64,000 nt of DNA from Styela clava (taxonomy: Eukaryota): the NCBI RefSeq assembly GCF_964204865.1, contig NC_135255.1, positions 992,001 through 1,056,000 of the forward strand. Reading direction: 5' to 3'. The notes below the pieces were generated by a model. That model did not search any database. It worked only from the letters and a program-made list of their open reading frames with translations, and was not told where the DNA came from. Every line of letters starts with the position of its first letter. Position 1 is the first letter of the stretch. This document shows, piece after piece, positions 1 through 55,934 of the stretch. Made by a program: the position numbers and the translations under genes.

Positions 1-3000
1 ATCAAGTGTGATACATGCCTGAAATTTTTGAAAAAAGCAAAACAAGAGTTTGACAAGCAATACAAGCTTGAATAAAAAACGAAACAAATATGGTACAAGC
101 AAAGCAATTGTGAGACAATCAATCCAAGATTGATAGAATCAGGACTTGTGTGAGAACGTCGAAAATATGTGAAACATTGAGAACAGGCGTGGGACAACCG
201 TGATAAGTTTGAGACAAGCATTACAAAAAGTGGAATATCAGGACAAGTGTGGGAAAATCATGTCAAGCATGGGACAAACAGGACAAGGGTGAAATGAGAC
301 CGATAAGTGTTATTTGGGCAGGACAAATGTAGGACACCTAAGAAAACCTTGGAAACAATCAGGACAAATCGAGGTCGAGCAGAACAAGTTTGAGACAGGC
401 ATTACAAGTGGTGGACTATCAGAACAAGTGTGGGGAAAGCAGGACAGGTATGGGGCAAACATAAAATGTGGGATGCAAGCAAGACATCTGTGAAATAAGT
501 GGGATATTTCATTGAGTTTTAGAAACAATGTAGCAGAAGAACACGTAGAGAAAAGGGTGACACAAGCAAGTCGAGATTGATTCAATCAGGATATGTGTTA
601 AACAAATATAATATGTGTGGGTCAAGCAGAGAAAGTGTGACACAATCAATCCACGTTTGATACAATCGGGACGTGCGTTTAAGTTTAAGTGAGCCAAGCC
701 TGACAAGTTTAAGATAAGCAGGCAGGACAATTAAAGAACAACAGAGACAATCCTGAAAAAATCAGAACAAATCTGGGACACGCAGGTCGAGTTTGAGACA
801 ATCATTACAAGTGGTGAACTAATCAGAACAAATCTGGGACACGCAGGTGAAGTTTGAGAAAAGCATTACAAGTGGTGAACTAATAAAACAAGTGTGCAAG
901 CAAGACAAGTGTGATACAAGCATGACATGAAATAGGCAAGACAATTATATAACAAGCAATACAAGCGTAAAAAAAAAACAAATGTGGGACAAGCAGAGCA
1001 AGTGTGGCACAAACAAACCAAGTTTGATACAATCGGGACGTGCTTGAGATCGCCGGAAAAGTATGGGACAAGCAGGATAGGTGTGGAACGATCGCGACAC
1101 GTATGAGACATGCATTATAAGTGGCTGAATATCAGGACAAGTGGTCGAGAAGTTAGCCAAAAAATGGGACAAACAGAACATGTGTGGTGCGAGGAATACA
1201 TGGGTGAGACAAGCAGGACAAGTGTGAGCTAAGCCTGACAAGTTCAAGATAAGCAGGACAAATATAGGACAACAGAGACAACCCTGAAAAAGCAGGACAA
1301 ATATGGGACACGCAGGTCGTTTGAAATAGGCATTACGAGTGGTGAACTATTGAGACAAGTGTGGGAAAAGCAGGGCAAGTATGGAACAAACTGGAAATGT
1401 GTGTTGCAAACAAGACAACTATGAGACAAGCAAGGCGAATTTGATCCAATCAGGACATGTGTGACAAGCGTGCAACAAATAGAATAAGTGTGGGACAAAG
1501 GGGCATATTTTAGACAAGCATTGCAAGTATGATACTATCAGGACAAGTGTGAGAAAAGTAGGACAAGTATAAAACAATTAGGCACAGTGGGGTGCAAACA
1601 GGACCCGTGTGAGACAACCAGGACAAGTGTGATACAAGCACGAAATGTTTGAAATAAGCAAAACAAGTATATGACAGGCAATATAAGCGTGAAAAAATTT
1701 GGGACAAGCAGAGAACGTGTGAGACATTCAATTCATGTTTGATACAATCAGAACGAGTGTGAACGCCGGAAAAGTGTGAGACAATCAGAACAGGTGTGGG
1801 ACAATCTGGACAAGTTTGAGACAAGCATTACAAGATGTGGAATAAGGACAAGTGTGGGAAAAACAGGTCAAGTATGAGGCAAACACGACATGTGTGATGC
1901 AATCAATACATGCATGAGACAAGCGGGACAATTTTGAGCTAAGCCTAAAAAGTGTGAGTTGAGCAGGACAATGGTGGACAACTATGACAACTCGGTTACA
2001 AGCAGGACAAATGTGGGCTAAGAAGGACAAGTTTGAGAAATGCATTACAAGTGGTGAACTATCAGGACAAGTGTGGAAAAAGCAGAACAAGTATGGGACA
2101 AACAGAAAATGTTTGATGCAAGCAAGACATCTGTGAGACAAGCAGGAAAAGTTTGATATTTTCATTGGGTTATAAGAACAATGTAGCAGAGGAACAAGCA
2201 GAGAAAAGGTGAGACAATCAAGGCGAGTTAGATTCAATCAGGCCACGTGTTAAACAAGCATGGAAAGTGAGACCCAAATAGTGTGGAAAAAGCTGGTATG
2301 TTTGAGACATGCATTACTAGAGTGATACTATCAGGAAAATAAAACAAACAGGCACAGTAGTGAGGTGCAAACAGGACCAGTGTGAAAAAGCAAGACAAGT
2401 GTGAGACAATCAATGCAAGTTTGATACAATCAGTATATTATGAACAGTACATGTGTGATGCAAGCAAAATATCTGTAAGACAAGCAGGACAAGTTTGATG
2501 TTTTTTTTTCGGGTTTTGAGAACAATGTAGAAGAAGAACAAGCTAAAAAAGGTGAGACAAGCAAGACGAGTTTATTTCAATCAAGGCATGTGCTAAACAA
2601 GATCAACCGGACACAAATAGAATAGGTGTGGAAGAAGTGGGCACATATGTGAAAATATCAGGACAAGTGTGAGAAATGTGGGACAAGTATAAGACGAACA
2701 GGCACAGTGAGGTGCGAACAGGAACAGTGTTAGACCAGCAAAACAAGTGTGATACAAGCATGACATGTTTGAAATAGCAGGACCAGTATATTACAAGTGT
2801 GAAAGACATGAAACAAATGTGGGACAAGCACAGCAAGTGTGAAAGAGGTAATTAACAGTTAAATAATTAAGCGGTGTAATATCAGGACAAGTGTGGGAAA
2901 AGTAAATCAAGTATAGGACAAACAGGACATGTGTGATGCAAGCTATATATGTATGAGAGAATCAGAACAAGTGTGGGCTGAGCCTGACAAGTGTTAGGTA

Positions 3001-5538
3001 CTAGTGACACAAGCATGGCAAGTATATGGCAAGCGTGAAAGAAATGAAACAAATGTGGGACAAGCAGAGCAAGTGTGAAACAGTCAATTCAAGTTTGATA
3101 CAATCAGGACTTGTGTGAGAACGCCGGAAATATGTGAGACAATCAGAACAAGTGTAGCCTGAGCCTGACAAGTGTTAGGTACTAGTGATACAAGCATGAC
3201 ATCCTTGAAATAGCAGGACCAGTATATTACAAGCGTGAAAAAAAATGAAACAAATGTGGGACAAGCAGAGCAAGTGTGAAACAGTCAATCCAAGTTTGAT
3301 ACAATCAGGACTTGTGGGAGAACGCCGGAAATATGTGAGACAATCAGAACAGGTGTGGGACAAGTTTGAGACAAGCATTATAAGTGGTGGAATATCAGAC
3401 AAGTGTGGAAAAATCAGGTCAAATATGGGGCAAACAAGACATGTGTGATGCAAGTAATACATGTGTGAGACAACCAGGACAAGTATGAGATGAGACCCGA
3501 TAAGTGTTATTTAGGTAGGACAACTAAGAAAACCCTGATACAGGAAAGAAAAATGTGTGTCGAGCAGGTGGTCGAGCTTGCTTGTCCCACACCTGGTTGA
3601 GACAAGCATTGCAAGTGTAATACTATCAGGACAAGTGTGAGAAAACTAGGACATGCAAAGAGGAACAGTGTGAGACAAGCAAGACATGTTTGAAATAGGC
3701 AAGAAAAGTAAAATGACAAGCAATACGAGCGTGAAAAAACGAAACAAATGTGGGACCAGCAGCATCTTGAGACAATCAATCCAAGTTTGATACAATCAGA
3801 ACGTGTGTGAGACAAGAGAAGCAGTTGTGGGACGAGCAGGGCAATTCAGAGACAAGCATTACAAGGGGCGGAATATCAGGACAAGTGGAGGAAAAGCAAT
3901 TAATAGGACAAACAGGACATGTGTTATGCAGGCAATAAGACAAATAGTCACACCGGAATGCGAACAGGAACAGTGTAAGACAAGTGTGATTCAAGCATGT
4001 TAGAAATACGAAAGTCAAGTATATGACAAGCAATACAAGCGTGAAAAAACAAAACAAGTGTGGGGCCAGCAGAGAAATCTTGAGACAATCAATCTAAGTT
4101 TCATACAATCAGGACGTACGTGAGAACGCCGGAAAAATGTGGGACACGCAAAACAGGTGTGGGACAAGCATTACAAGTGGTGGAATATCAGGACAAGTGT
4201 GGAAGAGCAATTCAAAAATGGGACAAACAGGATATGTGTACTGCAAGGAATACATGTGTGATACAAGCACGACAAGTGTGAGTTAAGCCTGGCAAGTTTA
4301 AGATAAGTAGGACAAATGTAGAAAAACAGAGACCTCTAAACAAGCAGGACAAATGTGGGACACGCTAGACAAGTTCAAGACAAGCATTACAAGTGTGAAA
4401 AAGTAGGACAAGTATAAGACAAACAGACACCGACAGACAGAGTGGAGTACAAACAGGGCCAGCATGAAACAAGCAAGAGAAGTGTGATACAAGCATGACA
4501 TGTTTGAAATAAGCAAACAAAGTAAATGACAGGCAATACATGCGTGAAAAACGTACAAATGTGGGACTAACAGAGAAATCTTGTTACAATCAATTCAAGT
4601 TTGATACAATCAGGACGTGCGTGAGAACGTCGGAAAAGCCTGACAAGTGTTAGATAAGCGAAAATTATATAGGACAAATAGAAAAACCTGATACAAGTAG
4701 GGAAAATGTGGGATAATCAATCCAAGTTTGATACAAGCGTTATAAGTGGTGGACTATCGGGACTAGTGTGGTATAAGCATGGCAAGTATCGGACAAACGG
4801 GACATGTGTGATGATGTAAACCATTTTTGGGACCTGCCGGACAAGTGGTATTTTTCATTGGGTTTTAGCAGATGGGCAAAAAGAGAAAGTGTGAGACTAG
4901 CATGGCGAGTTTGATACAATCATGACATGTGTGTGAAATAAGCCTGGCAAGTATGAAAAAAGCATAATAAGTGCGGGGAAACTCCCACGTTCTAAGCATT
5001 ACAATTGTGGGACTACCAGGACAAATGTGGGAAGAGTTGGACAAGTATAGGACAAATAAGACAAATGGGTTGCAAACTGGACTAGAGTGAGACAAGCAAG
5101 GCAAGTTGAATCATTCAGAAGTGCGTGGCGCAAGCAGGATAAATGCCGGACAAGTTGAGACAGGCATTACACGTGGTGGAATATCAGGAAAAGTGTGTCA
5201 AACGCAGGACAAGTATGATACACACGGGACCTGCGTGATGCAAGCAAGCCACCTGTGGGACAAGCACTACAAGGGTGATATTTTGATTGGGTTTTAAAAT
5301 AATGTAGCAGACGGACTAGCAGAGAAATTGTGAGGCGAGCAAGGCGAGTTTAAGTCGATGAAGACATGTGTTAAGCAAGTCTGACAAGTGTGAGACAAAT
5401 AGAATAATTGTGCGACAAGCGGGCGTGTTTCAGACAAGCATTACAGGTGTGATACTATCAGGACAAGTGTGAGAAAATTAGAACAAGTATGAGACAATTA
5501 GGCACAGTGGGGTGCAAACGGGACCCGTGTGAGACAAC
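1..5538. repeat. Degenerate satellite built on ~10/20-bp units (consensus ~GGACAAGTGTGAGACAAGCA) with longer recurring modules; runs off the left edge of the window
   Basis: Very many GACAAG, TGTGGGA and GAGACAAGCA motifs with strong purine/pyrimidine strand asymmetry. Longer blocks recur (e.g. aatccaagtttgatacaatcaggac, gacaagcattacaagtggtggaatatcagg). Local ~181-bp duplication at ~2978 and ~3159. Confidence 0.9.
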
Positions 5539-7913
5539 TGTGGCGACCCTTGTTTTATCTGTTAAATGATGTCATGTGATGTTGTTTCCATATTTGGTGT
5601 TTTGGCATTGGGGACCCTGGGGAGCACTGTGGCACTGTCGATCTATTCTTCTGGGTGTCGATTTGTTCTCTGGTCTCTGTCGGGTTGTCGGGGATGTTTG
5701 TTTGTGGTTTTGTGACTGCGGTGCTTCCTGGTACTTGTCGCTTTATTTCCTATTTTACATGAACTAATGGATGGCATGTCAAGGCTTTGGTCAATAACGT
5801 GCCTGTTTTGTTTTTGATTGATACCGGTGCGGGTATCTCGCTCATTGTTAACGCTGTTTACTCGACGTTGCAGAAAAATTAGGACATTCCAGAACTGTAT
5901 CATTTTCCAGTACCACTCCATACTACCAGTGTCGAGTCATTAGTGTCTCATGGTGCACTTGATGTTAACCTGACGATTGAAAGCTAGTCTGTGGAGCATA
6001 CCTTTGTCGACGCCGATCTAGGGTCATGGATGGGCATGCTGCGTATGGACTATCTGGCAAATGGGACTGTGTTCTGTATCCCTCGTCGGGTCGTTTTGTT
6101 TTTGTGGGACGGGATGTTATTGTGCAGCACCAGACGTCGGTTCCCTGCTGTCGTGTGACTGTAGATGACGGTATGGGTATACCGGCCCGCTCGGGAGTTG
6201 TTGTACTCGTTCAGCTACAGCAGCCTTGGCCGTCTGGAGACTTGACATAGAAGCCGTTATTGAGTCAGTGGAGATGTGCAGCATCAATTTGGTCGCTTCG
6301 ATGACGTTGGTGGACCTAATCCAGAAAGACAAACTTTACGCATGTCTAAGCGTGAACATGCCCACCCTGCATATTTTAAAGACTTTGTGGAAATATTTTG
6401 TTTTGACCACTGCTTCTTTTGTTGTTCAAATTTTTCTGAGGAAGATGAAAACATTCTTTCATAATGTTCAATCTAGAAGAGAGGGGTAATGTGACGACCC
6501 TTGTTTTATCTGTTAAATGATGTCATGTGATGTTGTTTCCATATTTGGTGTTTCGGCATTAGGGACACTGGGAGGCGCTATGCCCCTGTCGATCTGTTCT
6601 TCGGGGTGTGGCTGTTAGCGAGTGCTGTGGTTGGCAGGGTGCAGTTCTCTGAGTGTGGTTGGTTTTCGGATGGATTCTGGTCATGAGTGTCTGTGGGAGT
6701 GCCTCTGGTCTCCGGTGGGTTGTCGGGGATGTTAGTTTGTGGTTTTGTGACTGCGGGATGGGGATTTGTTGGATGTTTTTGTGCTAGACAGTAGACTGAT
6801 ATTATTGTTTCAGTACAGTGCCAGTGCAGTTATTTTAGCGTTGTATTTTTGATTGTTGTCAGGGAATTAGCTATCATCAGTACTGTTCAAAGTGTTTTTA
6901 TTGTGTATATTCTGTTTTCTTGCATTGTGCTGCCTGGTACTTGTCGCTTTATTGTATGTGTGACGACCCTTGTTTCATCTTTTAAATGATGTCATGTGAT
7001 AATATTGCTATATTTTGTATTTTTAACACTGAAGACCCTGAGAGCGCTGTGACACTGTCGATCTGTTTTTTGGTATCCTGTTAGCGTATGCTGTGGTTTG
7101 CAGCAGTGATTGTTTCAGTTAGATTTTGAGTGTTTAAGGGTATTCTATATCTGTAAAAGTGCCTCTAAGTCTCAAGTAGGTTATCAAAGATGTTTTCTCA
7201 TGGTTTTATGACTATTAGATTGGGATTGTCAGATATTTTGATGCTAGACAGTAGGATGATATTGTTTTAGTACCCGTACAGTGCAATTACAGTTGTTTTG
7301 ACGTTGTATTTTTAGTTTATTCATGAAATTGGCTATCAACAGTGCTGTTCAAATCTTGTGCACCTGTGGAATTGTTTGTGGTTTTTTTAAAGTGCCCGTC
7401 ATGGGTTATTCAGATTCTCAGCCTATTTTTCAAATTGTAAGTAGCTGGTTTAGTGTACCGGATTATAGGGGTTATTTTGGCTGCTATTGAAAGTTGTCTT
7501 TGATTTCAGGGTCCGTCTTTAATTTTATTGTTTTCTCATATTGTACTGCCTGGTATTTGTTATTTTTATTGTATGCTTTTCGTTTCATTGATTTCATTGG
7601 AGTATTTGGTTGTATTAAGATTGTAATTAATAAATAGAACAAAATAGTATAAATTGAAGTGAATATTGGGAGGAAACTTGACGTCAGATCATATTGGAAG
7701 ATATTCTGAACTTGGATAATTATTACATAGACTGCCGGTACGCTACATATGCTTGTCGTTTTGTTTGGAATATTCGGTTGTGTTGAGATTGTTAATTAAT
7801 AAATATAAAATACTATGAATTGAAGTGAATATTGAGAGGAAACTTGACGTCAGATCATATTGGAAGATATTCTTAACTTGGATAAATATTACATAGACTG
7901 CCGGTACGCTCCA
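5539..7913 (+). mobile_element. Internally deleted Gypsy LTR retrotransposon inserted in the satellite (truncated 5' LTR from 5539; 3' LTR 6490-7913)
   Basis: TG...CA ends with 4-bp TSD CAAC (5535-5538 / 7914-7917). LTR head tgtg(g/a)cgacccttgtt is repeated at 5539 and 6490. Polypurine tract agaagagagggg lies just before 6490. Protease remnant VLFLIDTGAGISLI at ~5800-5850 and pol C-terminal-like remnant RMSKREHAHPAYFKDFV. Confidence 0.85.
6959..7747 (+). mobile_element. Solo LTR of the same family nested inside the 3' LTR
   Basis: tgtgacgacc...ggtacgctaca, flanked by 4-bp TSD TATG (6955-6958 / 7748-7751). The uninterrupted junction (attgtatgcttttcg) is present inside this LTR itself. Confidence 0.85.
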
Positions 7914-8190
7914 CAACCAAAACTAGTGTGATACAAGCATGAAATGTTTGAAATAGGCAAATAAAAGTATATGACAGACAATACAAGCGTTAAAAAACGA
8001 AAAAATGTGGAGATATCAGGACAAGTTGGAGGAAAGCAAGTCAAAAATGAGACAAACAGGACATATTATGCAAAGAATACATGTGTGAGACAAGCAGGAC
8101 GTGTGAGCAAGCTTGATTTGTGTTAGGTAAGCAAAACGTGAGACAACTCTTATAAATCAGGACAAGTTTGAGTGTGAGACAAGCAGGATA
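7914..8190. repeat. Continuation of the GACAAG satellite after the LTR-element insertion
   Basis: The same motifs resume in register after the CAAC target-site duplication. Confidence 0.85.
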
Positions 8191-9604
8191 TCGTGGTTTC
8201 CCTAACAATAATTTATCAAGTTAATTTTAAGTTTATATAAACCCGAGTGATTAGGATTTATTATAAATACAAGAATTTCTTATTGTGTCCTTTGGGTTAC
8301 ACCACCTTGCACAAAATTAGCTTGCTCCTTATTAAGTTAATTTCGCTCCCAGTTTCGACCGTTCAATACGATGAGATTCAACGGGAGTTTGCAGAATAGC
8401 GTGGGGGTTTGGCAGGCGCGCAAAAGTTAAATACCACTGATTTAGTTGTTAGGTAAAGCTGCCAGGCTGCGAAAATATGGAGCGCGCGAATGATTTGGTG
8501 ATCTAATAAGGACTTTGTTGGAACGAGCCGTCATCCGAATATCAATTTTAGATTCAGTAATAATTGCGACTCATAATAACGCAATGACTAATTTGTCTTG
8601 GTTTTTAAATTGGTAATTACATTCCATTATTTATCGTTACCGTCTGCTTGCAGCAAAGAGTAAGCTATATTGCCGCAATAGTTTTCTCCTTTGCAAATTC
8701 CGTGTGTCAAATAGATACAAATCATGGAAATACAAACCAGGCAATAATTCCAACTATCTGTAGTAAAATAGATGCTTTTTAGTCGAAATTGTGATGACTT
8801 GCTTATGATATATTACTATTGAAGAACCTAACAATAGTGAAGGTATTTTCCAAAGTCGGTACTAAAGGCCTGCCCAACCTTTTTCTTCTCGCGGGCCACT
8901 TTCAAGTGACGAAATTCGTTGTGGGCCGCAAACGTTTGTACCAAACATTAATACCAGCTAAGTCCTGATTTCGGTGTAGGTTATTTACATAATAAATAAA
9001 AGGCAAGTTTATTAACATCAAATCAATCACTTTAATTACTGTTTTCTGGTTACTGAGTGGGGCTGACAAATTATTCGAATATCTAGTCGAATATTAGAAT
9101 AGCAGTTTACAATTCGAATACCTGGTAACACGAGGCGTGGACAATGTTCAAATGAGCATAATGTGCGCCACTGTTGCGGGAATATCAAGTTTAAGTGGGC
9201 CGTTTCGTAAAATTTGAAATACCAATACAAATATTCAATGAAGCAACATTACAAAGATTTCTGGGCGAATAGCCTATATATACTGATTTGTGACCAATAT
9301 GCAGCAATGCCATTAAGCCAATTTTTTTAAAATTATTGACGGATACGCAGCGCCAGTTATATAATAACGAGTGTTTGTCCTTTATTGTGTGATAATAAGT
9401 GTTTGTACTGCCGACGCATCTGAAGCGTCGACTGATTATGATATGCCTCGCTGATTTCGTTTTCCTCGTATTATTTCTCTCGCGCAATTGCGCGTGGTAT
9501 CGTGGATAATAAATTCATTCCTGTCTTGGATTTCATACAAGACGCTGCTTGTTTTTCTGTGTAGGTCTTTGGCGTTGTAAGATAATTACGACCTATTACT
9601 GGCG

Positions 9605-9616
9605 TGGTGGCAGCGG
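9605..9616 (+). promoter_or_regulatory. Primer-binding site TGGTGGCAGCGG complementary to the 3' end of tRNA-Leu
   Basis: Directly abuts the 5' LTR end and is the reverse complement of the ...ccgctgcca-CCA acceptor end of eukaryotic tRNA-Leu(AAG/TAG). Confidence 0.8.
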
Positions 9617-9659
9617 AGACGAACTCTAAGGCTGTATATCTCCTATACTGAGGTCAACA

Positions 9660-12600
9660 ATGGCAGCTGTTAAAGCACCAAAGCAGTGGCCTCTGAAGAA
9701 ATGTGAGTCAATCACTTCCTTCGAAACATGGAGACAAAATCTGCTATACACTTTAGCCCTGGACAATAACTTTACGCCTTTTCTTGCCCCTGACGTCCAA
9801 TGGGAGAAACAAACCAAAGCTAACCCACTGAGAGGTCTGACCGATGATGGAGAGGCAGCAGCTGAAGACCGCAGAAAGTCGGCAATTCAAAAAAAAACGC
9901 CACTTTAGAGTTGATGCTCGGACAAATAGCAAATTATTGTACGATTATGTCTCGCAACACCATCGTCAATAATTCCACATCTTTGAACTGTATTTGGCAA
10001 GCGCTCCGCATGCATTATGGGTTTCATACTACCGGCGCCCATCTCCTGGAGTTAACCAATATCAAACTTGAAGATGGGGAAAGAGCAGAAGACCTTTACC
10101 AACGCCTAATGTCTTTTTTTGAAGACAACCTCGCTGCCACAAATAGCTCAATTACTCATCACGGCTCTGTGCCAACGGAAGACGAAGACTTAATTGGAAA
10201 ATACAATCGTTTATTTCTGGTTGTCTTTGTTGCACCAGGATTTACCAATGCTCGTTAAGCAACGTTATGGAACTGAGCTGCGTTCTCGCACACTAGCTTC
10301 TATCAAACCTGAAATTTCAGGAGCGCTCGAGTCACTATTAAACGAGCTGACCTCCATGGAATATGCCAAAGTGTGTAGATCTCTTCACTCTCAAAAGTTG
10401 AATTCAAAGAAGGATAGTTCCAGCCGCCGCAACATTAACATACGTCAATCATGCCCTCTGTGCAAGGAAGGGGGTCGACCGTTCAAGCATTACCTGAGCC
10501 GCTGCCCTTTCCTTCCTGACAACGATAAACAATTCATGGCTAAAGCACGTATGATCAGTACGGATCAGGATGACATGGATCCTTTGGTGGACATAAGTTC
10601 AGCATCTTCTGACTGTCCTGAGGTAAATTCTAACTCTAGTCATTATATTTACCGCTCACGACGTGTTAACATATGTCATTGCCCTCACCTGGTCTTGTAC
10701 TGTAAAGGAAAACCCATCCGTGTCGTGCTTGACACTGGTGCTGAGTGTAATATGATATCTCTATCCCTTGCTAGTCTTTTGGGCGCCAAAATATCTAAGT
10801 GCTCTCAAAGAGCTCTACAGGCTGACGGATCATCATTTTTAAATGTACTTGGAGAAACAGCTATTACCCTATCACTTGATGCTGTTTCTATGCCTTTTAA
10901 AGCACTGGTAGTTCAACATTTAGATTCCGACATTTTGGCTGGCACCCCGTTTATGGTCGAGAACGATATCATTTTGCGATCTGCAAAGCATACCATCAGT
11001 ATTCGCAACCTTCCTCCACTCCCATATGATGATAAACGTCTCAATAGTGAGGCTAGTCACCCGCCTCATATTATTAGACACTACAGCAAGTCACGCGTCC
11101 TTTGGCCTGGCGAAACTATGACAGTTCCCTTACCAAATCACTTGCTTGATGTTGACGAGGTGGCTGTCGAGCCTCGCACCGATTGTCAGTCCGTTACCAC
11201 TGAAAAATGGTTAACGCCTTGCATTGCTCCCCGCCATAACGATTACATCCTTATTCAAAATTCACCATGCGAACCTGCACGTATTGACAAGCATCAACAA
11301 TTCGCCCAACTTTTACCTGTTATATCTCAACAATCCATTACCCAGTCTACCAACCATAATTCCTTCGTTCGACCATCCCCTCCGTTTGCAACCAACATAA
11401 AAGTCGATCCTGAACATATCCTGCCCTCAGACATTGTCGCAAAATTTCAACACTTACACCAAAGGTTTGATAGCGTGTTTAACCCGAGCCCTCCCGGTTA
11501 CAATGGAGCTGTTGGTCCCTTCAAAGCTGTGGTTAATATGGGACCTACCCAGCCCCCTCAACGGAAAGGTAGAATACCTCAATATTCGCGTGATAAATTG
11601 GTTGAGTTACAGCAAAAGTTTGATGAACTTGAGGCATTGGGTGTTTTCCAAAAACCAGAATGCGTTGGGGTCACTGTGGAATATTTAAACCCCTCCTTCT
11701 TAGTCAAGAAAGCCTCGGGGGGTTATCGTCTAGTCACTGCATTCGCAGACGTTGGGAGATACTCAAAACCACAACCTTCCCTTTTACCTGATGTTGACTC
11801 TACTCTGCGCAAAATTGCATGTTGGAAATACATAGTCGTGTCGGATCTCACAAGTGCCTTCTATCAAATCCCACTTGAAAAGAAGTCTATGAAATATTGT
11901 GGTGTGGTAACACCATTTCGTGGTACCCGGGTATATACCAGATCTGCTATGGGAATGTCTGGATCTGAAACTGCTTTGGAAGAGCTTATGTGCCGGGTTT
12001 TAGGTGACCTATTACAGGCTGGTATCGTAACTAAAATAGCAGACGATTTATACTGTGGGGGAAATACTCCTGAGGAATTGCTCCGTAACTGGAGTAGTGT
12101 GCTTTCTGCCTTATCAAAATGTGGTTTATGTTTATCTGCTTCAAAACTATTATAGCCCCCAAGTCAACCACCTATTTGGTTGGATATGGTCAGAAGGCAT
12201 AATTAAAGCATCCCCACATCGTATTGCCACATTATCCACATGCGACCCACCTAAAACTGTAGCAGCTATGCGGTCCTTTTTTGGAGCTTACCGTGTTCTT
12301 TCTAGAGTCATACCCAAATGTGCAAATTTTTTGTGTGACCTACAAAAAGTCACTGATAACCGTGCTTCCCAAGAAACTATTTTGTGGAATGATGAGCTAC
12401 TTCAACAAAGTTTTCACTCTGCCCAATCTCATTTATCTAGCAACAAGTCTATAACGTTACCAAGACCCAGTGATTTATTGTGGCTAGTTACTGATGGTTC
12501 AGTTTCACATCCGGGTTTAGGAGCCATACTGTATATTACACGTGAGGGCGAGACACACCTTGCTGGTTTTTTTAGCGCTAAACTTAAGTCTCGCTTCACT

Positions 12601-14265
12601 TCCTGGATTCCATGCGAAATCGAGGCCCTCAGTATTGCATCTGCTATCACGCACTTTGCTCCCTATATCATCCAATCTGCAAATACTACACGGGTTCTAA
12701 CAGACAGTAAGCCTTGCTAATCGTAATGCACCGGAGTGTTGTACTAATAACTGTCAAATTTGTGCTTTTATTGATGATATCAAGCAACAACCTGTCATGC
12801 GTGAGGTTTCTGCTCACGACATTTTATCAGGCCACACTAAAATGCGTTTACTTCTGGATCTGCCTGGCTTACAATTCAAAAAGAATGTGCGGATCTTCGG
12901 CGAGTCCACGCTCACCTACAACAAGGCACCAGACCATCAAAAAAGTTGACTAGGATCATTGACGTGAAACGTTACCTCATGCATGCCACTATTGCTAGTG
13001 ATGGATTACTTGTTTATCATACATCTCGCCCTTTTTCCTCTCGCCAAGATCGTATTATTATTCCACGTCATTTCGTTGATGCTATTTTAACTGCTTTACA
13101 TATTCGATTAGAGCACCCCTCCGCTCACCAATTGGCATCTGTATTTAATCGTTATTTTTTTTGCTCTTGATTCTGATGCTATGATTAAACATGTTTCTAA
13201 TGCCCGCCATCAATGTGCCTCCCTAAAAAAGTTTGTGTCCCGCCCCATACCACAAACTACCAGTGATAACTTGCCATCCGTCGGATCAATGTTTGCTGCA
13301 GACGTTATTAAACAAAGAAAACAATTGATATTGGTCATACGAGAATGTGTTACCTCTTTCACACGAGCCTGCTTAATTGAAAATGAAAGAGAAGAGACTT
13401 TACGTAATGGTCTTGTGTGTTTAACTTTGGATATGACACCCCTTGATGGCCCACCAGCATTAATACGCACAGACTCTGCTCCTGCCTTTGCTTCGATGGC
13501 GAAAAATAACAGACTAGCCAAGCATCGACTTACACTCGAGCTTGGCCATTCGAAGAACATCAATAAAAATCCCATTGCTGAAAAAGCCGTACAAGAAGTG
13601 CAGGAAGAATTACTAAGACTTGCACCGGACAATCAGCCTGTTTCTCATGTCACATTATCAGTGGCCCTTGCTAATCTTAATTCACGACTACGCAAGAGGG
13701 GATTATCATCACGGGAAATGTGGACCCAAAGAGACCAATTCACTAATCAACAAATTCCCATGGAAGACAGACACATGATTGAAGAACAATATGCTAGTCG
13801 ACTCCAGAACCATAAGTCCAGCCAAAAGTCAAAATGCCGTAACCCTATTCCTATGTCTCCCATGATTCGTGTAGGTGATCTTGTATATTTATATGCTGAC
13901 CGCAAAAAAACTAAAGACCGGGACAGGTACTTGGTTGTGTCTGTCAATGGTGACTGGTGTAATATAAAAAAAATTCATTGGTAATCAGCTTCGAGCCAAT
14001 TCGTACAAAGTTCGAAAGTCTGATTGTTTTTTAGTTTCACCCACATTACCTTCCCCTTCCCAAGTTATACTTCAACTCTGAGGATTTCTATCCTCCGCTA
14101 CAACCAAGCTCATTTGTAGGTTTACTCCCCCAATTACCTACTGCGAATGTTCCCCCTCCTGAACCACCAGAATTATTTTTGCAAGATGGCCCAGCACCAC
14201 AATCTCGCTACCCCCGTCGTGAGCATCGTAAGCCTTCATATTTGAGTGATTACATTTTAGAATAA
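9660..14265 (+). pseudogene. Frameshifted gag-pol polyprotein of the LTR element
   Basis: Gag start MAAVKAPKQW, Zn knuckle CPLC-x8-H-x4-C, protease LDTGA, RT (DLTSAFYQI...KIADDLYCGG), RNase H (LWLVTDGS), integrase (H-x4-H, FAADVIK, RTDSAPAF, AEKAVQE), C-terminal SRYPRREHRKPSYLSDY*. Split over ORFs starting at 9660, 9911, 10194, 12055, 12946 and 13181. Confidence 0.9.
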
Positions 14266-15332
14266 GCCCGGTTTTGCATTTGTTTTGATTACAGTTTCGT
14301 TTACTATGGCATTCGGTTTTTAAGAAACCTATACTTTCTCGTCATTCTACTAAGTTTTAGTAATTTTTTTTCATAGTAATACCCATTATGGGAGCATGCG
14401 CCAGTTATATAATAACGAGTGTTTGTCCTTTATTGTGTGATAATAAGTGTTTGTACTGCCGACGCATCTAAAGCGTCGACTGATTATGATATGCCTCGCT
14501 GATTTCGTTTTCCTCGTATTATTTCTCTCGCGCAATTGCGCGTGTTATCGTGGATAATAAATTCATTCCTGTCTTGGATTTCATACAAGACGTTGCTTGT
14601 TTTTCTGTGTAAGGTCTTTGGCGTTGTAAGATAATTACGACCTATTACTGGCCTATTACTATTTCCAAAATCTTGATATAAAATAGTAAAAACATAAAAA
14701 GTCTGCTTACAAACTTCATAGGGCGGGCCGCAAAAAAACAGTTCGGCGGGCCGCGGGTTGGGCAGCCTTGCTTCATCTTTCCTTTCCAAAAACACATTTT
14801 ACCAGTGGCGGCGCGTCAATAGGGCCAACCGGGGCAATGCCCCGGTTGTTTTTTCGGTATAATAAAAAATATTCGAAAAATACCTCAATATCGGTTGCAC
14901 AGACTGTCTACACTAGCCATATTCTCCCGACATGGTTCATTTTTCGCTCGCAAAGCCTTCGCCGAACGTCGACGGGGCGACGCCGATTTTTCCCCGGTTG
15001 CTCATTGTATATCGTGTTCTCTCTTCTATCTTCCACTCGCCGCGTTTGTCTCGTTTGTTTTCTGTTTCTTTTACTAAATCATCGGGGCTAGCCCCGAAAT
15101 TATGACGACACAATGCCAACGTTTCTTACAACAACGTGTTGACATATTCAGGCATTCCTTCTCGTTCGTTGGTTGCTTGAAGAGTTGATAGTTTCCTCGC
15201 CTTCGTTTTTGTCGCTTGTTTCGCTATTTGAATCAGTTAGAGACCTTTAGTCCATTTGCTTTCGATTTTCCACATTCCTTTTGAGCTCCTCACTTCTTTC
15301 CGGCTTCGCATTTCTTAGCCTTAGACCTCATA

Positions 15333-18300
15333 ATGAATAAGGTTGATGCACTACTTCGCACTCCGTTTTCGCAGCTGCCGCTGGAACAAAAATTAGAGGT
15401 ACAACGTCTTGGGCCTTATCAACCTAAAAATTGTTCACTGGAACAATCCCATGACGGAGGAAAGCGTCGGCGTACATTCTGCGCAGAAACTTGGTATAAA
15501 AAACACGAATGGTTGTGTTACAGCGAGGACAAAAATGCACTTTTTTGTTTTTATTGCCTACTTTTTGCTACCGCCCGTGACTCACGTTGGTGTAAATTTG
15601 GTTTTAGAGATCTTAAACATCTTTCCGGGCGTGCCAGGGATCATCAATCTTCTATGGAGCATCTGGACAATGCAGTAAAATACCGAACATTCGGAAATGT
15701 TAATATTGCAGCACAGTTGGATGAAGGACGCGCGGTTTCTATTCGTCGGCACAACCAAAACGTCTTGAAAAACCGCTATGTTCTCGGTCGATTGATAGAT
15801 GTTTTGAAGTTCATTGGTTGTCACGAGATGTCCCTCCATGGGCACGATGAACGGGCTGGCTCTTCTAATAGAGGGGTATTTTTGGATATGGTGGAATACA
15901 CCGCACCGCATACAGTATTGAGAGATCATCTTGATGCCGCAACTGTTTCGAAAGGGACATCTAAGGATATCCAAAATGATTTGCTCGACTCAATGTATAA
16001 AATTTATTTACAACATTTGGCTCTGGAAATTGAGAATTGCCAGTTTCTTTCGATTCAGTCTGACGAGACAACTGACATCACGTGCGTTTCCCAACTGGCT
16101 GTGATTTTTCGGTTTGTGAAAGATGGTAAACCTACCGAGAGATTTCACAGCTTTGTACCAATCGTTGATCGCACGGCTTGCGGGATATCGGCTGTACTGA
16201 AAGAAGTGTTACAGCCTTACAACGCGAAGTCAAAATTGATAATCCAATCCACGCGTGGTGCAGGGCGTGTCCGAAATTAGGTCTGAGCTCATTGAGTGTT
16301 CCAATGGCATTCAGAGCTCTCCGGTTTGGGACGATTGACCCCAAAAATTTTTCAAAATTTGCACGTCAATTTCCCATCCATTTGTTGGCTACTGTCTCCA
16401 AATTTTACCCATGATAAACGTGGGTAAATTGGAAAATGAATTGCGATGTATATACATAGGCTTACCGTACGTCCCGGTTTAGCCGGGACAGTCCCGTTTT
16501 TAACAAGCTGTCCCGGCGTCCCGGCCGGTAGACTCAAATGTCCCGGTTTGGCAGCTCGGCTGCCATGGGTAAAAGTTCATATTCAATATTATTATAATTT
16601 TTTTTTATTGAAGACAGCCCACTTACCACCACTGATTTGCGACACACTTTACATGTTCAGAGAGAGAGAGAGAGAGAAATTTGTCTATTGTTATGTCACA
16701 ATTGTGATATGTTTTAATGCGTCACCTGACGTTAACTGCTCTGCCGTTAAGTTGTCGAAATGCCAAAAAGAAAGTGCAAATTTTCCAATGAGTTGAAGAG
16801 AGATTTTCCTTATTTGAAGCAAACTGAAGGAGGAAAAACACTTTGTACTCATTGCAGATCTGTTTTTTCTATTAGTCATGGCGGTCGTTCAGATGTCAAC
16901 GATCATCTCCAAAGCAAGAAGCACCAATCATTATCGGCTCGACTCACCAACTTCTTTGCGATAATAAATTCGAAAGATTCTTTGTTTTTGGCAGCCAAAA
17001 GGCCACAGTTGCCTATCATACTGCTGTTCATGGCCAAAGTTTTCACTGCACCTCTAACTTAATTTCAAATTTTTTTTAGCCTAAATTTGCATTAGCCAGA
17101 ACTAAATGCGAGTCGGTGATTGTTAATTGCATTGCTCCACTGCTATCCTCTGAACTCGTATCAGTAACCATCGGTGCATTAAGCAGAAAAGATTTATAGC
17201 TTGTTCCAGTTGTGGTTCGTTATTTTTTACCTGATGTTGGTGTGAAAAAAACTATTAGAATTCAAATGTTTACCCGGGGAAACCGCCGAAACTTTTACTG
17301 AATACTTGCTCTCTGTTCTCGATCAAAAACATTTGAAAGGAAGAGTTGTTGGATTCTGTGCGGATAACTGCAACACCTACGTAGGAGGCGTAAAAAGACG
17401 CGGTACAAATATTGTTTATTTCAAACTGAAAGAAAGCACAAATTTTACATTTACACTGTCCGAGTAACAGAACTGAAATCATTCTGCGACTTTGTTGATA
17501 TTGAATATCAACGGCTATTGCAGCATGGCAACATTCGGTTTCTCTCATTATTACCTGCTCTGTAGAGGATTACGGAAATTGAAGGCTTGAAAAGTTATTT
17601 CAATTCTCTAGAAGGATGCCCGACTCTTCTACAAAAATGTTTCGACGATCCAGCGTACGAACTTTACTTGAAATTTGTCCTTGGCCAGCTCACCTACTTC
17701 AAAATTGTTCTCATTTTGGAAAAAGATAATACTAATGCTGTAGATGTTGCAAATATTTTGCCTGAGTTGAAGCAAGAAAAAATGGAAAGTGTGTTTATTC
17801 CATCGCAAGCGATGGATAAAGAAATATTTATCCGAGCATAGATCAAATGCAATTTGGCTTACTTTGCCCGTTGAGGATAAGTGGATAGAAATGTTCAAGA
17901 ATTTTTCAAGCAAAAACATTAGTATTTTGAATTTGCCGAAAATTATTGAATTTGTATTTTGTTTGCCTGAAACATCGGCATCTGATGAACGGCTTTTCTC
18001 AATTGTTAAAATTTTTTGGTCTGAAAGCAGGGGCGGAATGCTAGAAGAAAATATTAGCACTCGTCCCTTGCAAAATTAATGGGGATCTGCCATGTTATCA
18101 GTTTTATGACAAAATCAAATCGAACCAAGTATTTTTAAGAAGCGTTCTTTCTGCGGACAAATACTTTTGGTCTAAATAAATAATACAAACTAATTTTTTG
18201 TGTTTTCCTAATTTAAAGACCAGTAAAGATTAACAGCTGTATATACCCTCAATGGCATGGTAGAAGTTTTAATATTACTAAGATTGGCAATAGACTGAAT

Positions 18301-19369: not shown

Positions 19370-20470
19370 GCACACGAACACAAATATATTTCTGTAACGT
19401 TTCGTCTGACCGAGGTCAGACTTCTTCAGACAAGCATTTTACAACTATAACAAGAAACGCAATTGCATGCACATAAATATTGGTTTCAAATGTTGGGTCT
19501 GTTTGCGATAGAGAGATATAAATAAAATTGGGACAGTGCCAGAACAATAGGGAAGCTAAATTTGATTTAAAATCAATAGATACCCCACAGTGTAGTGAGT
19601 GACAATTAAAAAGAAAATTAAACAATTTCATGCTGTTATCCCGTAACTCCGACTGTGGTATCTCCTAAGTTCATTAAGGGTCATGGCTGCAATCTAAGTA
19701 AATGAACATAACCGCGAAATAGAAATCAAGTGTAAGTGACAATGAAATGTAATGTTCAAATTAGCATAAATTGTGAATTTATCCATCTTTTAAATTCATC
19801 CCTAGTGGTTCTAATGTTTTGAATTTGTTAATAAAATAGGTTTCTTTCGTTTGCCGGTATACTTGATCTCGATATAGTTTTTCTATTCCAATTACCAGAA
19901 AGTCGTTGATGGAATGGCCTGATTGATTGAAATGTTTGCCAACTGCAAGATCTTTGTTTTTTTGATTGATGCTTCTAATGTGTTCTGTAATTCTGTATTT
20001 TAAATGTCTGCCTGTTTCACCGACGTACTGCATGCCACATTTTCTACAGGTTATCAGGTATATGACATTTTCTGAATTGCACGTTATTCTTTGATTGATG
20101 TTCATTTGAAGTCTTGTGACGCTGCTAATGCTTGTTTTAGTTTCCTCTGAATATTTGCAGGTTGAGTATGATTTCCTGTTGCATTTATAGAAGCCTGATT
20201 TTACTTCTCTTGATGATTCCGGTTTCAACTTGGCCCGAACTAGTCTGTCCCGTAATGTTGGGCACTTTCTGTATGCAATTTTGGGGGCGTGCCGGGAAGA
20301 TGTTTCTCAGTCTTTCGTTGTTGTCTAGTATGTATTGATATTTAGAGAAAATGTTTCCGAAGTTTGGTTGATTAGGATGGTAATTAGTAACGAAAGGCAA
20401 TAGTTGTTGATCATTGTGTTTTATTTTTGGTGTTAACAGTGAATCTCTAGTTATTTCTTTTACCATGCCT
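19370..20470 (-). mobile_element. 5'-truncated Penelope-like retroelement (linker, GIY-YIG endonuclease and 3' terminal region)
   Basis: ORF 19779-20228 contains NVIYLITCRKCGMQYVGETGRHLKYRITEH...LEPLGMN. The frameshifted upstream ORF 20185-20466 contains PFVTNYHPN. A hammerhead lies downstream. Confidence 0.88.
19392..19434 (-). ncRNA. Minimal type I hammerhead ribozyme in the Penelope-like element terminal region
   Basis: Minus strand reads tgt-CTGAAGA-a-gtctgacc-tc-ggtcagac-GAAA-cgtt-aca: CUGANGA and GAAA cores, long stem II, palindromic AACGTT stem III and short stem I. Confidence 0.75.
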
Positions 20471-21899: not shown

Positions 21900-22862
21900 C
21901 TATTGTGGCAAGAGTTCCGCGGGATCAAACGGAAAATATTTATGAGTTTCGAAAAAGGAATCTTTGCAGGGCATTATTCTCAAATGCCTATCGAGTTCTT
22001 TGATCTTGACAAGGTCAAGGTCTTCAAGAGAGAAGTCAAATATTTCGAAATTTTCCTGGATTCTTCTGGGATTTACACTTTTAGGAATGACTGACGTGCC
22101 TCTGTTTACCAAGTACCGAATTATGACTTGTCCAACTGATTTTTTATATTTTTCCGCCAACTGTTTCAAGACGGGATCATCGAGAACGTTTATTCCTGCT
22201 TTTATGACCCATGGTCTACCAGGAGATGCAAAAGGACTGTATGATGTGACTGCTATTCCTTTTGACTTGCAAAAGTCCAGCATTTGTTTTTGATCCAAAT
22301 AAGGATGAAATTCTATCTGATGTACTGCGGGAATGACTTGTGCATGACCTAGCAGACGACTGAGTTGGTCGAGGTTAAAATTTGATATCCCGATTGCTCG
22401 AACTTCACCAGATTTATAAATCTCTTCAAAAACCTTCCACGTATCAACGTAATCTATTGACTCATCGAATGGCGAATGAGAACCTCGTTTAAGAGCCTTT
22501 CCATCGTATTTCAGTCCAAAGGGCCAATGTATCAAAAACAAATCCAAATAATCCAGCTTTAGCTTGCGAAGACTTAAAGCTAAACCTTCTTTAACATGTT
22601 CAGGTGATTGGAACGCAGACCAAAGTTTGCTTGTTATAAACAAATCACTTCTTTTAACATCCCCTTTGCTGATGGCGTCATTTATCGCATCGCCAATGAT
22701 ATCTTCGTTGCAATATATTGCAGCACAATCAAAGTGGCGATATCCCACGCTGATTGCATATTTAACAGCATTTTTCAGATCTTGGGGTTTGGAGAGCGAA
22801 GTCCCTAGACCTGTGACAGGCATTTTACTTCCAGTATTTAGTGTAATGAATTTTGGCATCAT
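21900..22862 (-). CDS. Aldo-keto reductase family 1 (AKR1A/1B-like) oxidoreductase, intronless, 320 aa
   Basis: Uninterrupted ORF with GYRHFDCAAIY, FITSKLW, LDLFLIHWP, AIGISNF, QIEFHPY and VIPKSVNPRRIQENF. Catalytic tetrad D/Y/K/H intact. Confidence 0.95.
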   Translation of the reverse strand: MMPKFITLNTGSKMPVTGLGTSLSKPQDLKNAVKYAISVGYRHFDCAAIYCNEDIIGDAINDAISKGDVKRSDLFITSKLWSAFQSPEHVKEGLALSLRKLKLDYLDLFLIHWPFGLKYDGKALKRGSHSPFDESIDYVDTWKVFEEIYKSGEVRAIGISNFNLDQLSRLLGHAQVIPAVHQIEFHPYLDQKQMLDFCKSKGIAVTSYSPFASPGRPWVIKAGINVLDDPVLKQLAEKYKKSVGQVIIRYLVNRGTSVIPKSVNPRRIQENFEIFDFSLEDLDLVKIKELDRHLRIMPCKDSFFETHKYFPFDPAELLPQ

Positions 22863-54339: not shown

Positions 54340-55934
54340 GGTATGACTATCTCCGAGAACATGATTGCGTTCTTTACTTATCATCTAGACTAGACACATG
54401 ATGATAGAGGGTCATGGAATCAAACTGTTTACTGAAAAGTCTGTACCGTGTTGCCGTGTAACTGTTCCGGAAGATGTTACGATACCGCCATATTCTAAGG
54501 TTGTTATCCCTGCACAACTTAGTCGCCCATGGCCGAAAAGCAATTTGTCTGATGTCTGGATTATGGAAGGTCCACTGTTCCGATTCTAGCGGTCAACCAG
54601 AAAGGCAGACAACTTAAGATCAGAGCTGGATCTTTGCTGGGTATTGCACACTCTCGACTAGTAGCTCAGATTCAAGTCGACGAATCCGAAGGGGTTGTAG
54701 CTTCTGAATTACCAGAGTATCTACATGACATGGTCAATTCCGTTGAAGATCTATCCCCGAGTCAACGTGAACAATTGGTCAATTTGATTTGTGAATGGTG
54801 AACTTGGCCGTACTTCAGCAGCAAAGCATAGGATCATCACAACAACACCACATACGATTCGGCAGGCTTCTCGTCGAATTGGGGTGGGCACGTGGGAAGA
54901 TGGCCGAAGAAGCTGTTGATAGTATGCTGGCTCAAGGTGTCATTGAACCAAGTGATTCCCCATATTCTTCTCCCATTGTCTTAGTTCCTAAGAAAGATGG
55001 TTCTACCAGATTTTGCGAGTATTTCAGATTGCTCAATGACGTCACTTGCAAAGATGCATATCCCTTGCCGCGTATTGAGGATATCATTGAGTCCTTAAAC
55101 ACTCTCTAATCTTCGGGAAGTTTTCATAAGACTTCGCCGTGCCGGTATACTCTTGAAATTCCGAAATTAAAACTTTTCCGTCGAAGCACCTCTTATCTTG
55201 GTTATGTTATTTCATCTGAAGATGTCTGTTGCGACCCTGGAAATGTTGCGGCTATCAAAGAATTGAAAACGCCAAATTCTGTCAGCGATATTCGCAGTTT
55301 TCTTGGCACAGCGAACTACTACCGGATGTTTGTTCAAGACTATTCAACAATTCCCGGACCTCTTATTCGATTGAACAGGAAGAATATTGCCTTTGTATGG
55401 AGTACTCAATGTCAAAAGGCTTTTGAAACTCTGAAACACTGTCTGACATCAGCCCCAATTCTCAGTTTTTCTAGAACAATCGGCGAGTTCATATTGGATA
55501 CCGATGCTAGTGGTTTTGGAATCGGTTTCTTATGCCAGCAAGACTATGTCCCAGTCTCAACGTAGATACTGCGCTACACACCGGGAACTATTAGCCGTGG
55601 TGTGGGCTGTTCGTCATTTTAGCCATTTTCTTTTATAATTCGCACAGACCATGCTGCTCTCAAATGGCTGATCAATTTTCGTGAACCACAAGGGATGTTA
55701 GCAAGATGAATATTAACCCTTGGCGCTTATGACTTCAAGATTGAATACAGACCTGGAGTGAAACATGACAATGCTGACAACAAGACAGTTCCGATTGTAA
55801 TTGGCTAGATCAGGCGTCTCAAACTTGCGGCCCGCAGGACGATAATTTGCGGCCCCCACCTTGGTATGAAAGTTTAATGTTAGTGCGGCCCGGCCCAAGT
55901 CACTCAGCTCAGTTAGAACAATTGATGCATTTAA

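What the first reader, a model, noticed from the sequence alone, without database searches (positions are those of the whole stretch)
9351..14652. LTR retrotransposon with non-canonical CG...CG LTR termini, IADD RT motif and tRNA-Leu priming
Seen: the 5' LTR begins CGCCAGT and ends ACTGGCG with the PBS directly attached, so it lacks the near-universal TG...CA. The RT catalytic motif reads KIADDL rather than YxDD, the Gag knuckle is C-x2-C-x8-H-x4-C, and the PPT is weak. From memory, this combination fits the little-studied Troyka group of Gypsy-like elements (CG ends, 3-bp TSDs), which TG..CA-based LTR finders would miss. Inference: its integrase processes CG rather than CA ends.
Basis: partly seen in the sequence, partly recalled or inferred. 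Interest (0 to 1): 0.7.

Follow-up and report, generated by a model that had tools for sequence, protein, structure and literature searches.

The report
Decayed Troyka retrotransposon with CG ends
This is a broken copy of a recently spread jumping gene of the already described Troyka type, whose end repeats start and stop in CG instead of the usual TG and CA; the less ordinary points are that its two DNA ends are likely made unevenly and that it carries a predicted, probably inactive, dUTPase-like domain.

Summary
The element is real: LTRs at 9351-9604 and 14399-14652, a tRNA-Leu primer site, an IADD reverse transcriptase and a C-x2-C-x8-H-x4-C knuckle. Eight sister copies in the genome all have CG...CG ends and 3-bp target duplications (8 of 8), and identical LTR pairs (7 of 7 intact pairs). 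These are the published hallmarks of Troyka (Kojima 2025) = Kuafuorterviruses (Gong and Han 2024), now placed outside Gypsy. The host is probably a stolidobranch ascidian, a group already listed. The window copy is the most decayed: about 2% diverged, frame broken, purine tract mostly deleted, last G and right duplication lost with about 420 bp of the repeat it landed in. So the 'weak PPT' is damage to this copy. Not in the main text of either paper: the primer site abuts the CG end (18 of 21 related families), a pyrimidine-led 3-nt spacer follows the purine tract (15 of 15), and a degenerate dUTPase-like fold lies between protease and RT in 110 of 111 relatives (modest structural scores; sporadic dUTPase calls are in a published supplement). 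This scan noted Troyka before on other DNA. New member of a known kind.

The parts
8866..9350 (.). Left part of a multi-copy short host repeat (MITE-like) into which the element inserted
   Evidence: At least 40 matches in G000; uninterrupted copies continue past the insertion point
9348..9350 (+). Left target triplet CAG (its right duplicate is lost)
   Evidence: Uninterrupted host-repeat copies read ...CAG at this point in 8 of 8 loci printed, of 10 given
9351..9604 (+). 5' LTR, 254 bp, CGCCA...TGGCG
9605..9616 (+). Primer-binding site for tRNA-Leu(AAG/TAG), no spacer after the LTR
9660..14265 (+). Remnant of a single gag-pol frame, broken by frameshifts, stops and a deletion of about 136 bp
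   Evidence: one unbroken 1,614-codon stop-to-stop frame in 2 of 8 sister copies
10452..10505 (+). Gag zinc knuckle C-x2-C-x8-H-x4-C
10704..10952 (+). Retropepsin (DTGA at 10731-10742)
   Evidence: Pfam Asp_protease_2 E 1e-06; model matches the Ddi1 retroviral-like protease domain, Z 14.8, rmsd 2.4, 114 aligned
11037..11363 (+). Predicted degenerate dUTPase-like beta domain between protease and RT
   Evidence: Model pLDDT 86; fold searches; present in 110 of 111 relatives
11550..12155 (+). Reverse transcriptase core, IADD at 12036-12047
   Evidence: Pfam RVT_1 E 1.1e-07
12400..12714 (+). RNase H, cut short by a deletion in this copy
   Evidence: Pfam RT_RNaseH_2 E 6.5e-12
12841..13984 (+). Integrase in pieces (H2C2 region, D,D(35)E core, no GPF/Y)
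14390..14398 (+). Remnant of the polypurine tract (GGGAGC) and the ATG spacer before the 3' LTR
14399..14652 (+). 3' LTR, lacking its terminal G; 3 substitutions and 1 indel against the 5' LTR
14653..14675 (+). 23-nt filler at a deletion junction; begins with a copy of the LTR's last bases
14676..14771 (.). Right end of the host repeat; about 420 bp of the repeat are missing before it

Best explanation
The stretch is a decayed copy of a young Troyka (Kuafuortervirus) LTR retrotransposon family whose copies end in CG and duplicate 3 bp of target, and which likely moves by the usual copy-and-paste route through a virus-like particle. Shown: CG...CG ends, 3-bp duplications, a single gag-pol frame in sister copies, a PBS matching host tRNA-Leu, a purine tract, identical LTR pairs in the sisters. 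Inferred from general LTR-retroelement biology: RNA from the 5' LTR makes Gag-Pol; the protease cuts it; tRNA-Leu primes the minus strand; the purine tract primes the plus strand; the D,D(35)E integrase joins the 3'-OH of the CG ends with a 3-bp stagger. Inferred from the spacing: the cDNA is uneven, with 0-1 extra base at U5 and 2-3 at U3, so the integrase would trim mainly the U3 end. This copy is inferred dead: it landed at a CAG inside a short host repeat, then gathered about 2% substitutions and about 16 indels, lost most of its purine tract, and lost its last G, right duplication and about 420 bp of the repeat in one deletion.
For: Termini and duplications: (8 of 8 sister copies). LTR identity and frames. 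Divergence of this copy (1.96-2.11% against each of 8 sisters; sisters 0.22-1.28% among themselves). Empty-site comparison. Primer. Protein relatives: 120 best hits at 67-72% identity over RT-RNase H, with LADD 59, IADD 56, VADD 1, MADD 1, other or none 3; named ones come from corals, sea anemone, Mytilus, Haliotis and Synaphobranchus, host groups that Kojima lists. Published Kuafuortervirus RTs share long runs with the window RT, and three published elements show TGGCG joined to a TGGTG(G/A)CAGC primer site (compared by eye). Tree: window RT plus 13 relatives split from 14 other RTs of the same genome at 100/100, identity 75-85% against 19-31%.
Against: No named Repbase Troyka sequence could be compared by alignment; Kojima's supplement was not readable. 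The tree has no named Gypsy references and no root. The window copy itself shows neither the outer CG nor a duplication. The uneven-end model rests on spacing only; the RNase H cut sites are not known, and in this genome the base three before the LTR is a pyrimidine in only 1 of 3 lineages seen (ATG here; TAA and GCA in older relatives). For foamy virus a similar asymmetric model was proposed and then disputed (PMC1180852, passages).
Confidence: 0.95

Rival explanations
1. An ordinary Ty3/Gypsy element whose TG...CA ends have mutated or were mis-placed (for example the TG just before the 3' LTR is the true start).
For: Domain order is Gypsy-like; best solved-structure match is Ty3 RT/RNase H, E 2.8e-26; TG precedes CGCCA at the 3' LTR in all 9 copies.
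Against: The 5' LTRs start at CG after host DNA and the 3' LTRs stop at CG before host DNA, with 3-bp duplications only; the bases before CG vary among relatives (TCA, TTG, CCA, TAA); RT is 19-31% identical to the genome's other RTs.
Confidence: 0.02
2. The damage in the window copy is assembly error and the copy is as intact as its sisters.
For: Many of the indels are single bases; raw reads cannot be assigned to this copy among nine.
Against: It also carries 104-107 substitutions, mostly transitions, a 136-bp internal deletion, a purine-tract deletion and a flank deletion with filler, and its LTRs differ, while the sisters in the same assembly have identical LTRs.
Confidence: 0.05
3. The domain between protease and RT is not dUTPase-derived but a generic beta-sandwich spacer.
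For: Best Z only 6.2 (rmsd 3.6, 85 aligned), no Foldseek match under E 0.001, TM-scores 0.35-0.49; a profile search of PDB sequences found no dUTPase; 34 of 35 members have no Pfam dUTPase hit.
Against: All 38 listed Foldseek PDB rows are dUTPases or dCTP deaminase-dUTPases; the top 13 of 48,161 chains by VIA-align are dUTPases or proteins I recall as dUTPase-fold; 1 of 35 members hits Pfam dUTPase at E 0.0023; Gong and Han's Table S3 lists Pfam dUTPase right after the protease in 3 elements.
Confidence: 0.15

Closest known systems
Troyka LTR retrotransposons (Kojima 2025, J Gen Virol, PMC12440569; first reported by Kapitonov and Jurka 2008 as cited there)
   Same: CGCCA...TGGCG termini, 3-bp duplications, LTR 255 bp (range 100-400), single Gag-Pol with knuckle-PR-RT-RH-IN, C-x2-C-x8-10-H-x4-C, no env, no GPF/Y; hosts include stolidobranch ascidians (2 species).
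   Different: No tested difference. The main text has no occurrence of PBS, tRNA, polypurine, YxDD or dUTPase. Whether this very family is already named there could not be checked (supplement not readable).
Kuafuorterviruses (Gong and Han 2024, Virus Evol, PMC11673190), which include the Repbase Troyka elements
   Same: IADD/VADD/LADD motif, 5-6 kb length, near-identical RT motifs, recent activity judged by LTR identity; sporadic Pfam dUTPase calls after the protease in Table S3.
   Different: The main text does not treat target duplications, PBS, PPT or dUTPase; 'Styela', 'Ascidia' and 'Botryll' do not occur in the supplement.
Ty3/Gypsy (Metaviridae)
   Same: Domain order; RT-RNase H aligns colinearly with Ty3.
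   Different: TG...CA ends, 4-6-bp duplications, YxDD; Gly three residues before the integrase's catalytic Glu in 6 of 6 Gypsy-type frames where the loop was found, against Pro in 85 of 85 Troyka-type proteins.
Foamy virus integration (proposed asymmetric end processing; PMC1180852, passages)
   Same: One end proposed to be trimmed and the other left intact.
   Different: Mirror image (foamy: U5 trimmed, U3 intact; here U3 would be trimmed); CA ends; that paper argues against the asymmetric model.

Membership tests
Troyka | LTR 5' terminus CG (mostly CGCCA) | tested here: met
   CGCCAG at 18 of 18 LTR starts in 9 copies
Troyka | LTR 3' terminus CG (mostly TGGCG) | tested here: met
   TGGCG at 17 of 18 LTR ends; the exception is the window's 3' LTR, cut by a deletion
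Troyka | 3-bp target-site duplication | tested here: met
   8 of 8 sister copies, no 2/4/5/6-bp match; lost in the window copy
Troyka | Single Gag-Pol, order knuckle-PR-RT-RH-IN, no env | tested here: met
   One 1,614-codon frame in 2 of 8 sisters, ending about 150 bp before the 3' LTR
Troyka | Gag knuckle C-x2-C-x8-10-H-x4-C | tested here: met
   x8 in the window; x8 29, x9 68, x10 4, none found 19 of 120 relatives
Troyka | No GPF/Y motif in integrase; no tether between RT and RNase H | tested here: met
   Only GPF lies before the RT core; 5 of 85 relatives have GPF/Y in the last 350 aa; RT-RH colinear with Ty3
Troyka | Groups with named Troyka elements in Pol phylogeny | tested here: inconclusive
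   No Repbase sequences at hand; groups at 100/100 with proteins from Synaphobranchus, Mytilus, Porites and Haliotis, hosts that Kojima lists or abbreviates
Kuafuorterviruses | RT motif IADD/VADD/LADD in place of YxDD | tested here: met
   IADD in the window and in 8 of 8 sisters
Kuafuorterviruses | RT sequence close to the published members | tested here: met
   Window peptide words found in the published alignments (GMPGSETALEELM from a sister copy 16 times, KIADDLY 14, RLVTAF 14); compared by eye, not aligned
Ty3/Gypsy (Metaviridae) | TG...CA termini and 4-6-bp duplications | tested here: not met
Ty3/Gypsy (Metaviridae) | RT nested in a Gypsy clade | tested here: inconclusive
   Separate from 14 unnamed RTs of the same genome (10 checked, all with Gypsy-type Pfam domains) but the tree is unrooted; both papers place Troyka outside
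Trimeric dUTPase | dUTPase beta fold | tested here: inconclusive
   Consistent ranking but modest scores: Z 4.6-6.2, Foldseek E 0.003-0.017
Trimeric dUTPase | Catalytic motifs 3 (Asp) and 5 (Gly-rich tail); patterns recalled, not from a call | tested here: not met
   0 of 114 domains for each strict pattern; a motif-4-like xQ(L/V/I) in 110 of 114

The most novel reading that the evidence does not exclude
Across Troyka, reverse transcription yields an asymmetric cDNA: the tRNA-Leu primer abuts the U5 CG and a fixed 3-nt spacer follows the purine tract at U3, so the integrase trims one end only, with an active-site loop (N-K-N-P-x-x-E) unlike that of Gypsy and retroviral integrases; and every Troyka Pol carries an unrecognised, catalytically dead dUTPase-fold domain between protease and RT, kept for a structural role.
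Probability: 0.45. Interest if true: 0.5.

Novelty: new member of a known kind. Interest (0 to 1): 0.3.

Why it matters
The element itself adds one more family to a superfamily with hundreds of described members. What could matter to specialists is the mechanism: Troyka is an exception to the CA end rule and to the 4-6-bp stagger of LTR integrases, and Kojima reports no functional work. The primer geometry and the invariant Asn and Pro in the integrase loop give concrete predictions for how CG ends are made and read, and the dUTPase-like fold fills an unannotated part of Pol. The case also shows that a single copy can mislead: the weak PPT and the missing duplication are damage.

Tried and rejected
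Orientation-biased target choice: in G000 the duplications have A in the middle in 6 of 8 and T in 0 (p 0.03, post hoc), and G last in 7 of 8; in 17 distinct metagenome flanks (19 rows, three sharing one flank; counted by hand) the middle is A 8, T 7, C 2, with C first in 9 and G last in 8, so only a weak symmetric C-(A/T)-G preference remains. First tree held a non-RT row (L133) and lacked P0091; rebuilt without L133 and with P0091, also using fewer homologue rows and LG+G4; the six older Troyka-like loci L131-L136 were left out for lack of an unbroken RT frame. Profile search of the linker against PDB sequences gave no dUTPase. The linker profile hit none of the Gypsy-type frames from L117-L130, which does not exclude a similar fold there. 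Gln to Asn in the integrase loop as the cause of CG specificity: that position is variable in Gypsy frames (R, A, M, Q) and Pro at the position before it is kept in 39 of 85 Troyka-type proteins, so it is a correlation only. Sequencing runs: no RNA holder listed; laying four runs gave no empty allele for this site. Paper searches for prior description: troyka + retrotransposon (4 papers); kuafuortervir/trojicaviridae/troyka (15 papers, 14 listed); dUTPase with LTR retrotransposon terms (listings only); end-processing terms. The 2008 Repbase Report and Kojima's supplement were not seen and may describe the PBS and PPT. No source for Ty1 or Ty3 end geometry was found in passages read. No complex prediction was run.
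Full report
Observation. The window holds two direct repeats at 9351-9604 and 14399-14652. The first begins CGCCAGT and ends ACTGGCG and is followed at once by TGGTGGCAGCGG. Between them lie pieces of a gag-pol frame with a C-x2-C-x8-H-x4-C knuckle, a DTGA protease, an RT with IADD, RNase H and integrase. The 3' LTR lacks its last G, no target duplication is visible, and only GGGAGC remains of a purine tract.

Sister copies. A search of G000 with the LTR gave 19 matches, which resolve into the window copy and 8 other full elements, one with a split 5' LTR; no solo LTR was among them. All 18 LTR starts are CGCCAG; 17 of 18 ends are TGGCG. The 8 sisters have 3-bp duplications (TAT, CAG, AGG, GAG, CCG, TAG, CAG, CAG) and no 2-, 4-, 5- or 6-bp match; the chance of one match is 0.0195. 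All 8 have a long purine tract followed by ATG and then the LTR. The 7 intact LTR pairs are identical, and 2 of 8 sisters carry one unbroken 1,614-codon frame. Sisters differ from each other by 0.22-1.28%; the window copy differs from each by 1.96-2.11% and has about 16 indels, one of about 136 bp. The family therefore spread very recently, and the window copy is its most decayed member.

The missing right end. The flanks are two parts of a short multi-copy repeat. In 8 of 10 loci given, an uninterrupted copy reads ...CAG at the insertion point and has 226-442 bp (mostly 414-442) before the part that resumes at 14676. The left CAG is thus target DNA, and one later deletion removed the last G, the right duplication and about 420 bp, leaving a 23-nt filler (inference).

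Primer. The PBS pairs over 12 nt with the 3' end plus CCA of host tRNA-Leu(AAG/TAG); 7 of 8 sisters pair over 11 nt.

Relatives. The RT-RNase H part of a natural sister frame found 1,231 proteins among 7,987 scored; the best 120 are 67-72% identical. Their motif is LADD 59, IADD 56, VADD 1, MADD 1, other or none 3; the knuckle spacer is 8-10 in 101 of 120. Named hits are from corals, a sea anemone, Mytilus, Haliotis and Synaphobranchus. In an unrooted RT tree the window and 13 of these form one side of a 100/100 branch against 14 other RTs from G000; 10 of the latter were scanned and have Gypsy-type domains. No named reference is in the tree. The best solved-structure match is Ty3 RT/RNase H at E 2.8e-26. 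A host gene in the window is 81% identical to a Styela clava protein, so the host is probably a stolidobranch ascidian.

What is known. Kojima 2025 (PMC12440569; abstract through discussion read; supplement not readable) defines Troyka by CG...CG ends (573 of 603 LTRs begin CGCCA, 522 end TGGCG), 3-bp duplications, C-x2-C-x8-10-H-x4-C, one Gag-Pol, no env, no tether and no GPF/Y, lists two stolidobranch species, and places the group outside Gypsy. Gong and Han 2024 (PMC11673190; abstract through discussion and parts of the supplement) describe the same lineage as Kuafuorterviruses with IADD, VADD or LADD. Their RT alignments share long runs with the window RT (by eye). Every defining feature that could be tested on the family was met. 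This scan's notes hold Troyka findings from other genomes, and a diatom Copia with CG ends, which suggests CG ends alone are not diagnostic (unchecked).

End geometry. Among 80 metagenome loci (56 families at 90% RT identity), 27 families had enough upstream DNA; 21 had a Leu-type PBS, preceded directly by TGGCG in 17, TCGCG in 1, TGGTG in 2 and an unrelated word in 1. Five published elements show the same joins (by eye). In G000 the spacer is ATG here and TAA and GCA in older relatives, so the pyrimidine rule has exceptions. Neither paper's main text contains PBS, tRNA or polypurine. Retroviral integrases remove 2 or 3 nt to expose CA (PMC3395085, abstract and passages). The inference is that Troyka cDNA carries 0-1 extra base at U5 and 2-3 at U3. 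A like model for foamy virus was proposed and disputed (PMC1180852, passages), so this needs direct sequencing of ends.

Integrase. The second Asp and the Glu of D,D(35)E are kept in 85 of 85 and 84 of 85 full-length relatives. The loop before the Glu has invariant Asn, Lys and Pro, where 6 Gypsy-type frames have a variable residue and Gly. In RSV and foamy integrases this loop contacts the terminal viral bases (PMC7955051 and PMC3395085, passages). A link to CG ends or to the 3-bp stagger is a guess.

Protease-RT linker. A 109-residue domain is found in 110 of 111 relatives long enough to hold it. Its model (pLDDT 86) ranks dUTPases first in three libraries: 38 of 38 listed PDB rows by Foldseek (E 0.003-0.017), the top 13 of 48,161 chains by VIA-align (Z 4.6-6.2, best rmsd 3.6 over 85) and most named viral rows. 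Scores are modest. One of 35 members hits Pfam dUTPase at E 0.0023, a PDB profile search found none, and recalled catalytic motifs 3 and 5 occur in 0 of 114 domains. Gong and Han's Table S3 lists dUTPase after the protease in 3 elements, so the call exists in print as a sporadic hit; that it is general and likely inactive was not found in the texts searched.

Verdict. A real, decayed copy of a young Troyka family: new member of a known kind, interest 0.3. The end geometry and the linker fold are the parts worth a follow-up.

Noticed in passing
L028 (G000:C19:4635000-4643600): An insertion of about 8 kb with terminal inverted repeats and an apparent 9-11-bp duplication sits inside the 5' LTR of one sister copy; MULE-like by duplication length (recalled).
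   Followed up: no
L021 (about 2337-3932 on the element strand) and L026 (about 615-2067): Insertions of about 1.6 kb and 1.45 kb inside two sister copies whose LTR pairs are still identical, so other elements are moving very recently in this genome.
   Followed up: no
L131-L136 (G000 C18, C6, C1, C8, C9, C16): Older, broken Troyka-type relatives (49-84% RT identity); one keeps TGGCG joined to the Leu-type PBS, two keep a purine tract before CGCCA.
   Followed up: partly
window 8866-9350 and 14676-14771: Multi-copy short repeat of about 1 kb with inverted ends, at least 40 copies; hAT-like by recalled end motif.
   Followed up: partly
window 15285-16280 and 56473-58386: Two related hAT-type transposase remnants (DUF4371, Dimer_Tnp_hAT); their upstream DNA is 97% alike over about 500 bp.
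   Followed up: no
window 21900-22862 (-): Intron-less aldo-keto reductase frame, 81% identical to a Styela clava protein; basis for calling the host a probable stolidobranch ascidian.
   Followed up: partly
window 19779-20306 (-) and 55110-55565 (+): GIY-YIG fragment (Penelope-like, recalled) and a Gypsy-type RNase H fragment.
   Followed up: no
window 1-8000: Strong GC skew (0.25-0.31) with AT skew changing sign, probably simple or tandem repeats.
   Followed up: no
G000:C3:24,856,000-24,923,000: Tandem array with about 100 or more tRNA-Leu genes interleaved with tRNA-Ala.
   Followed up: no
P0023: A Troyka-type Pol deposited as a hypothetical protein of a Deltaproteobacteria MAG, probably animal DNA binned with a bacterium.
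   Followed up: no
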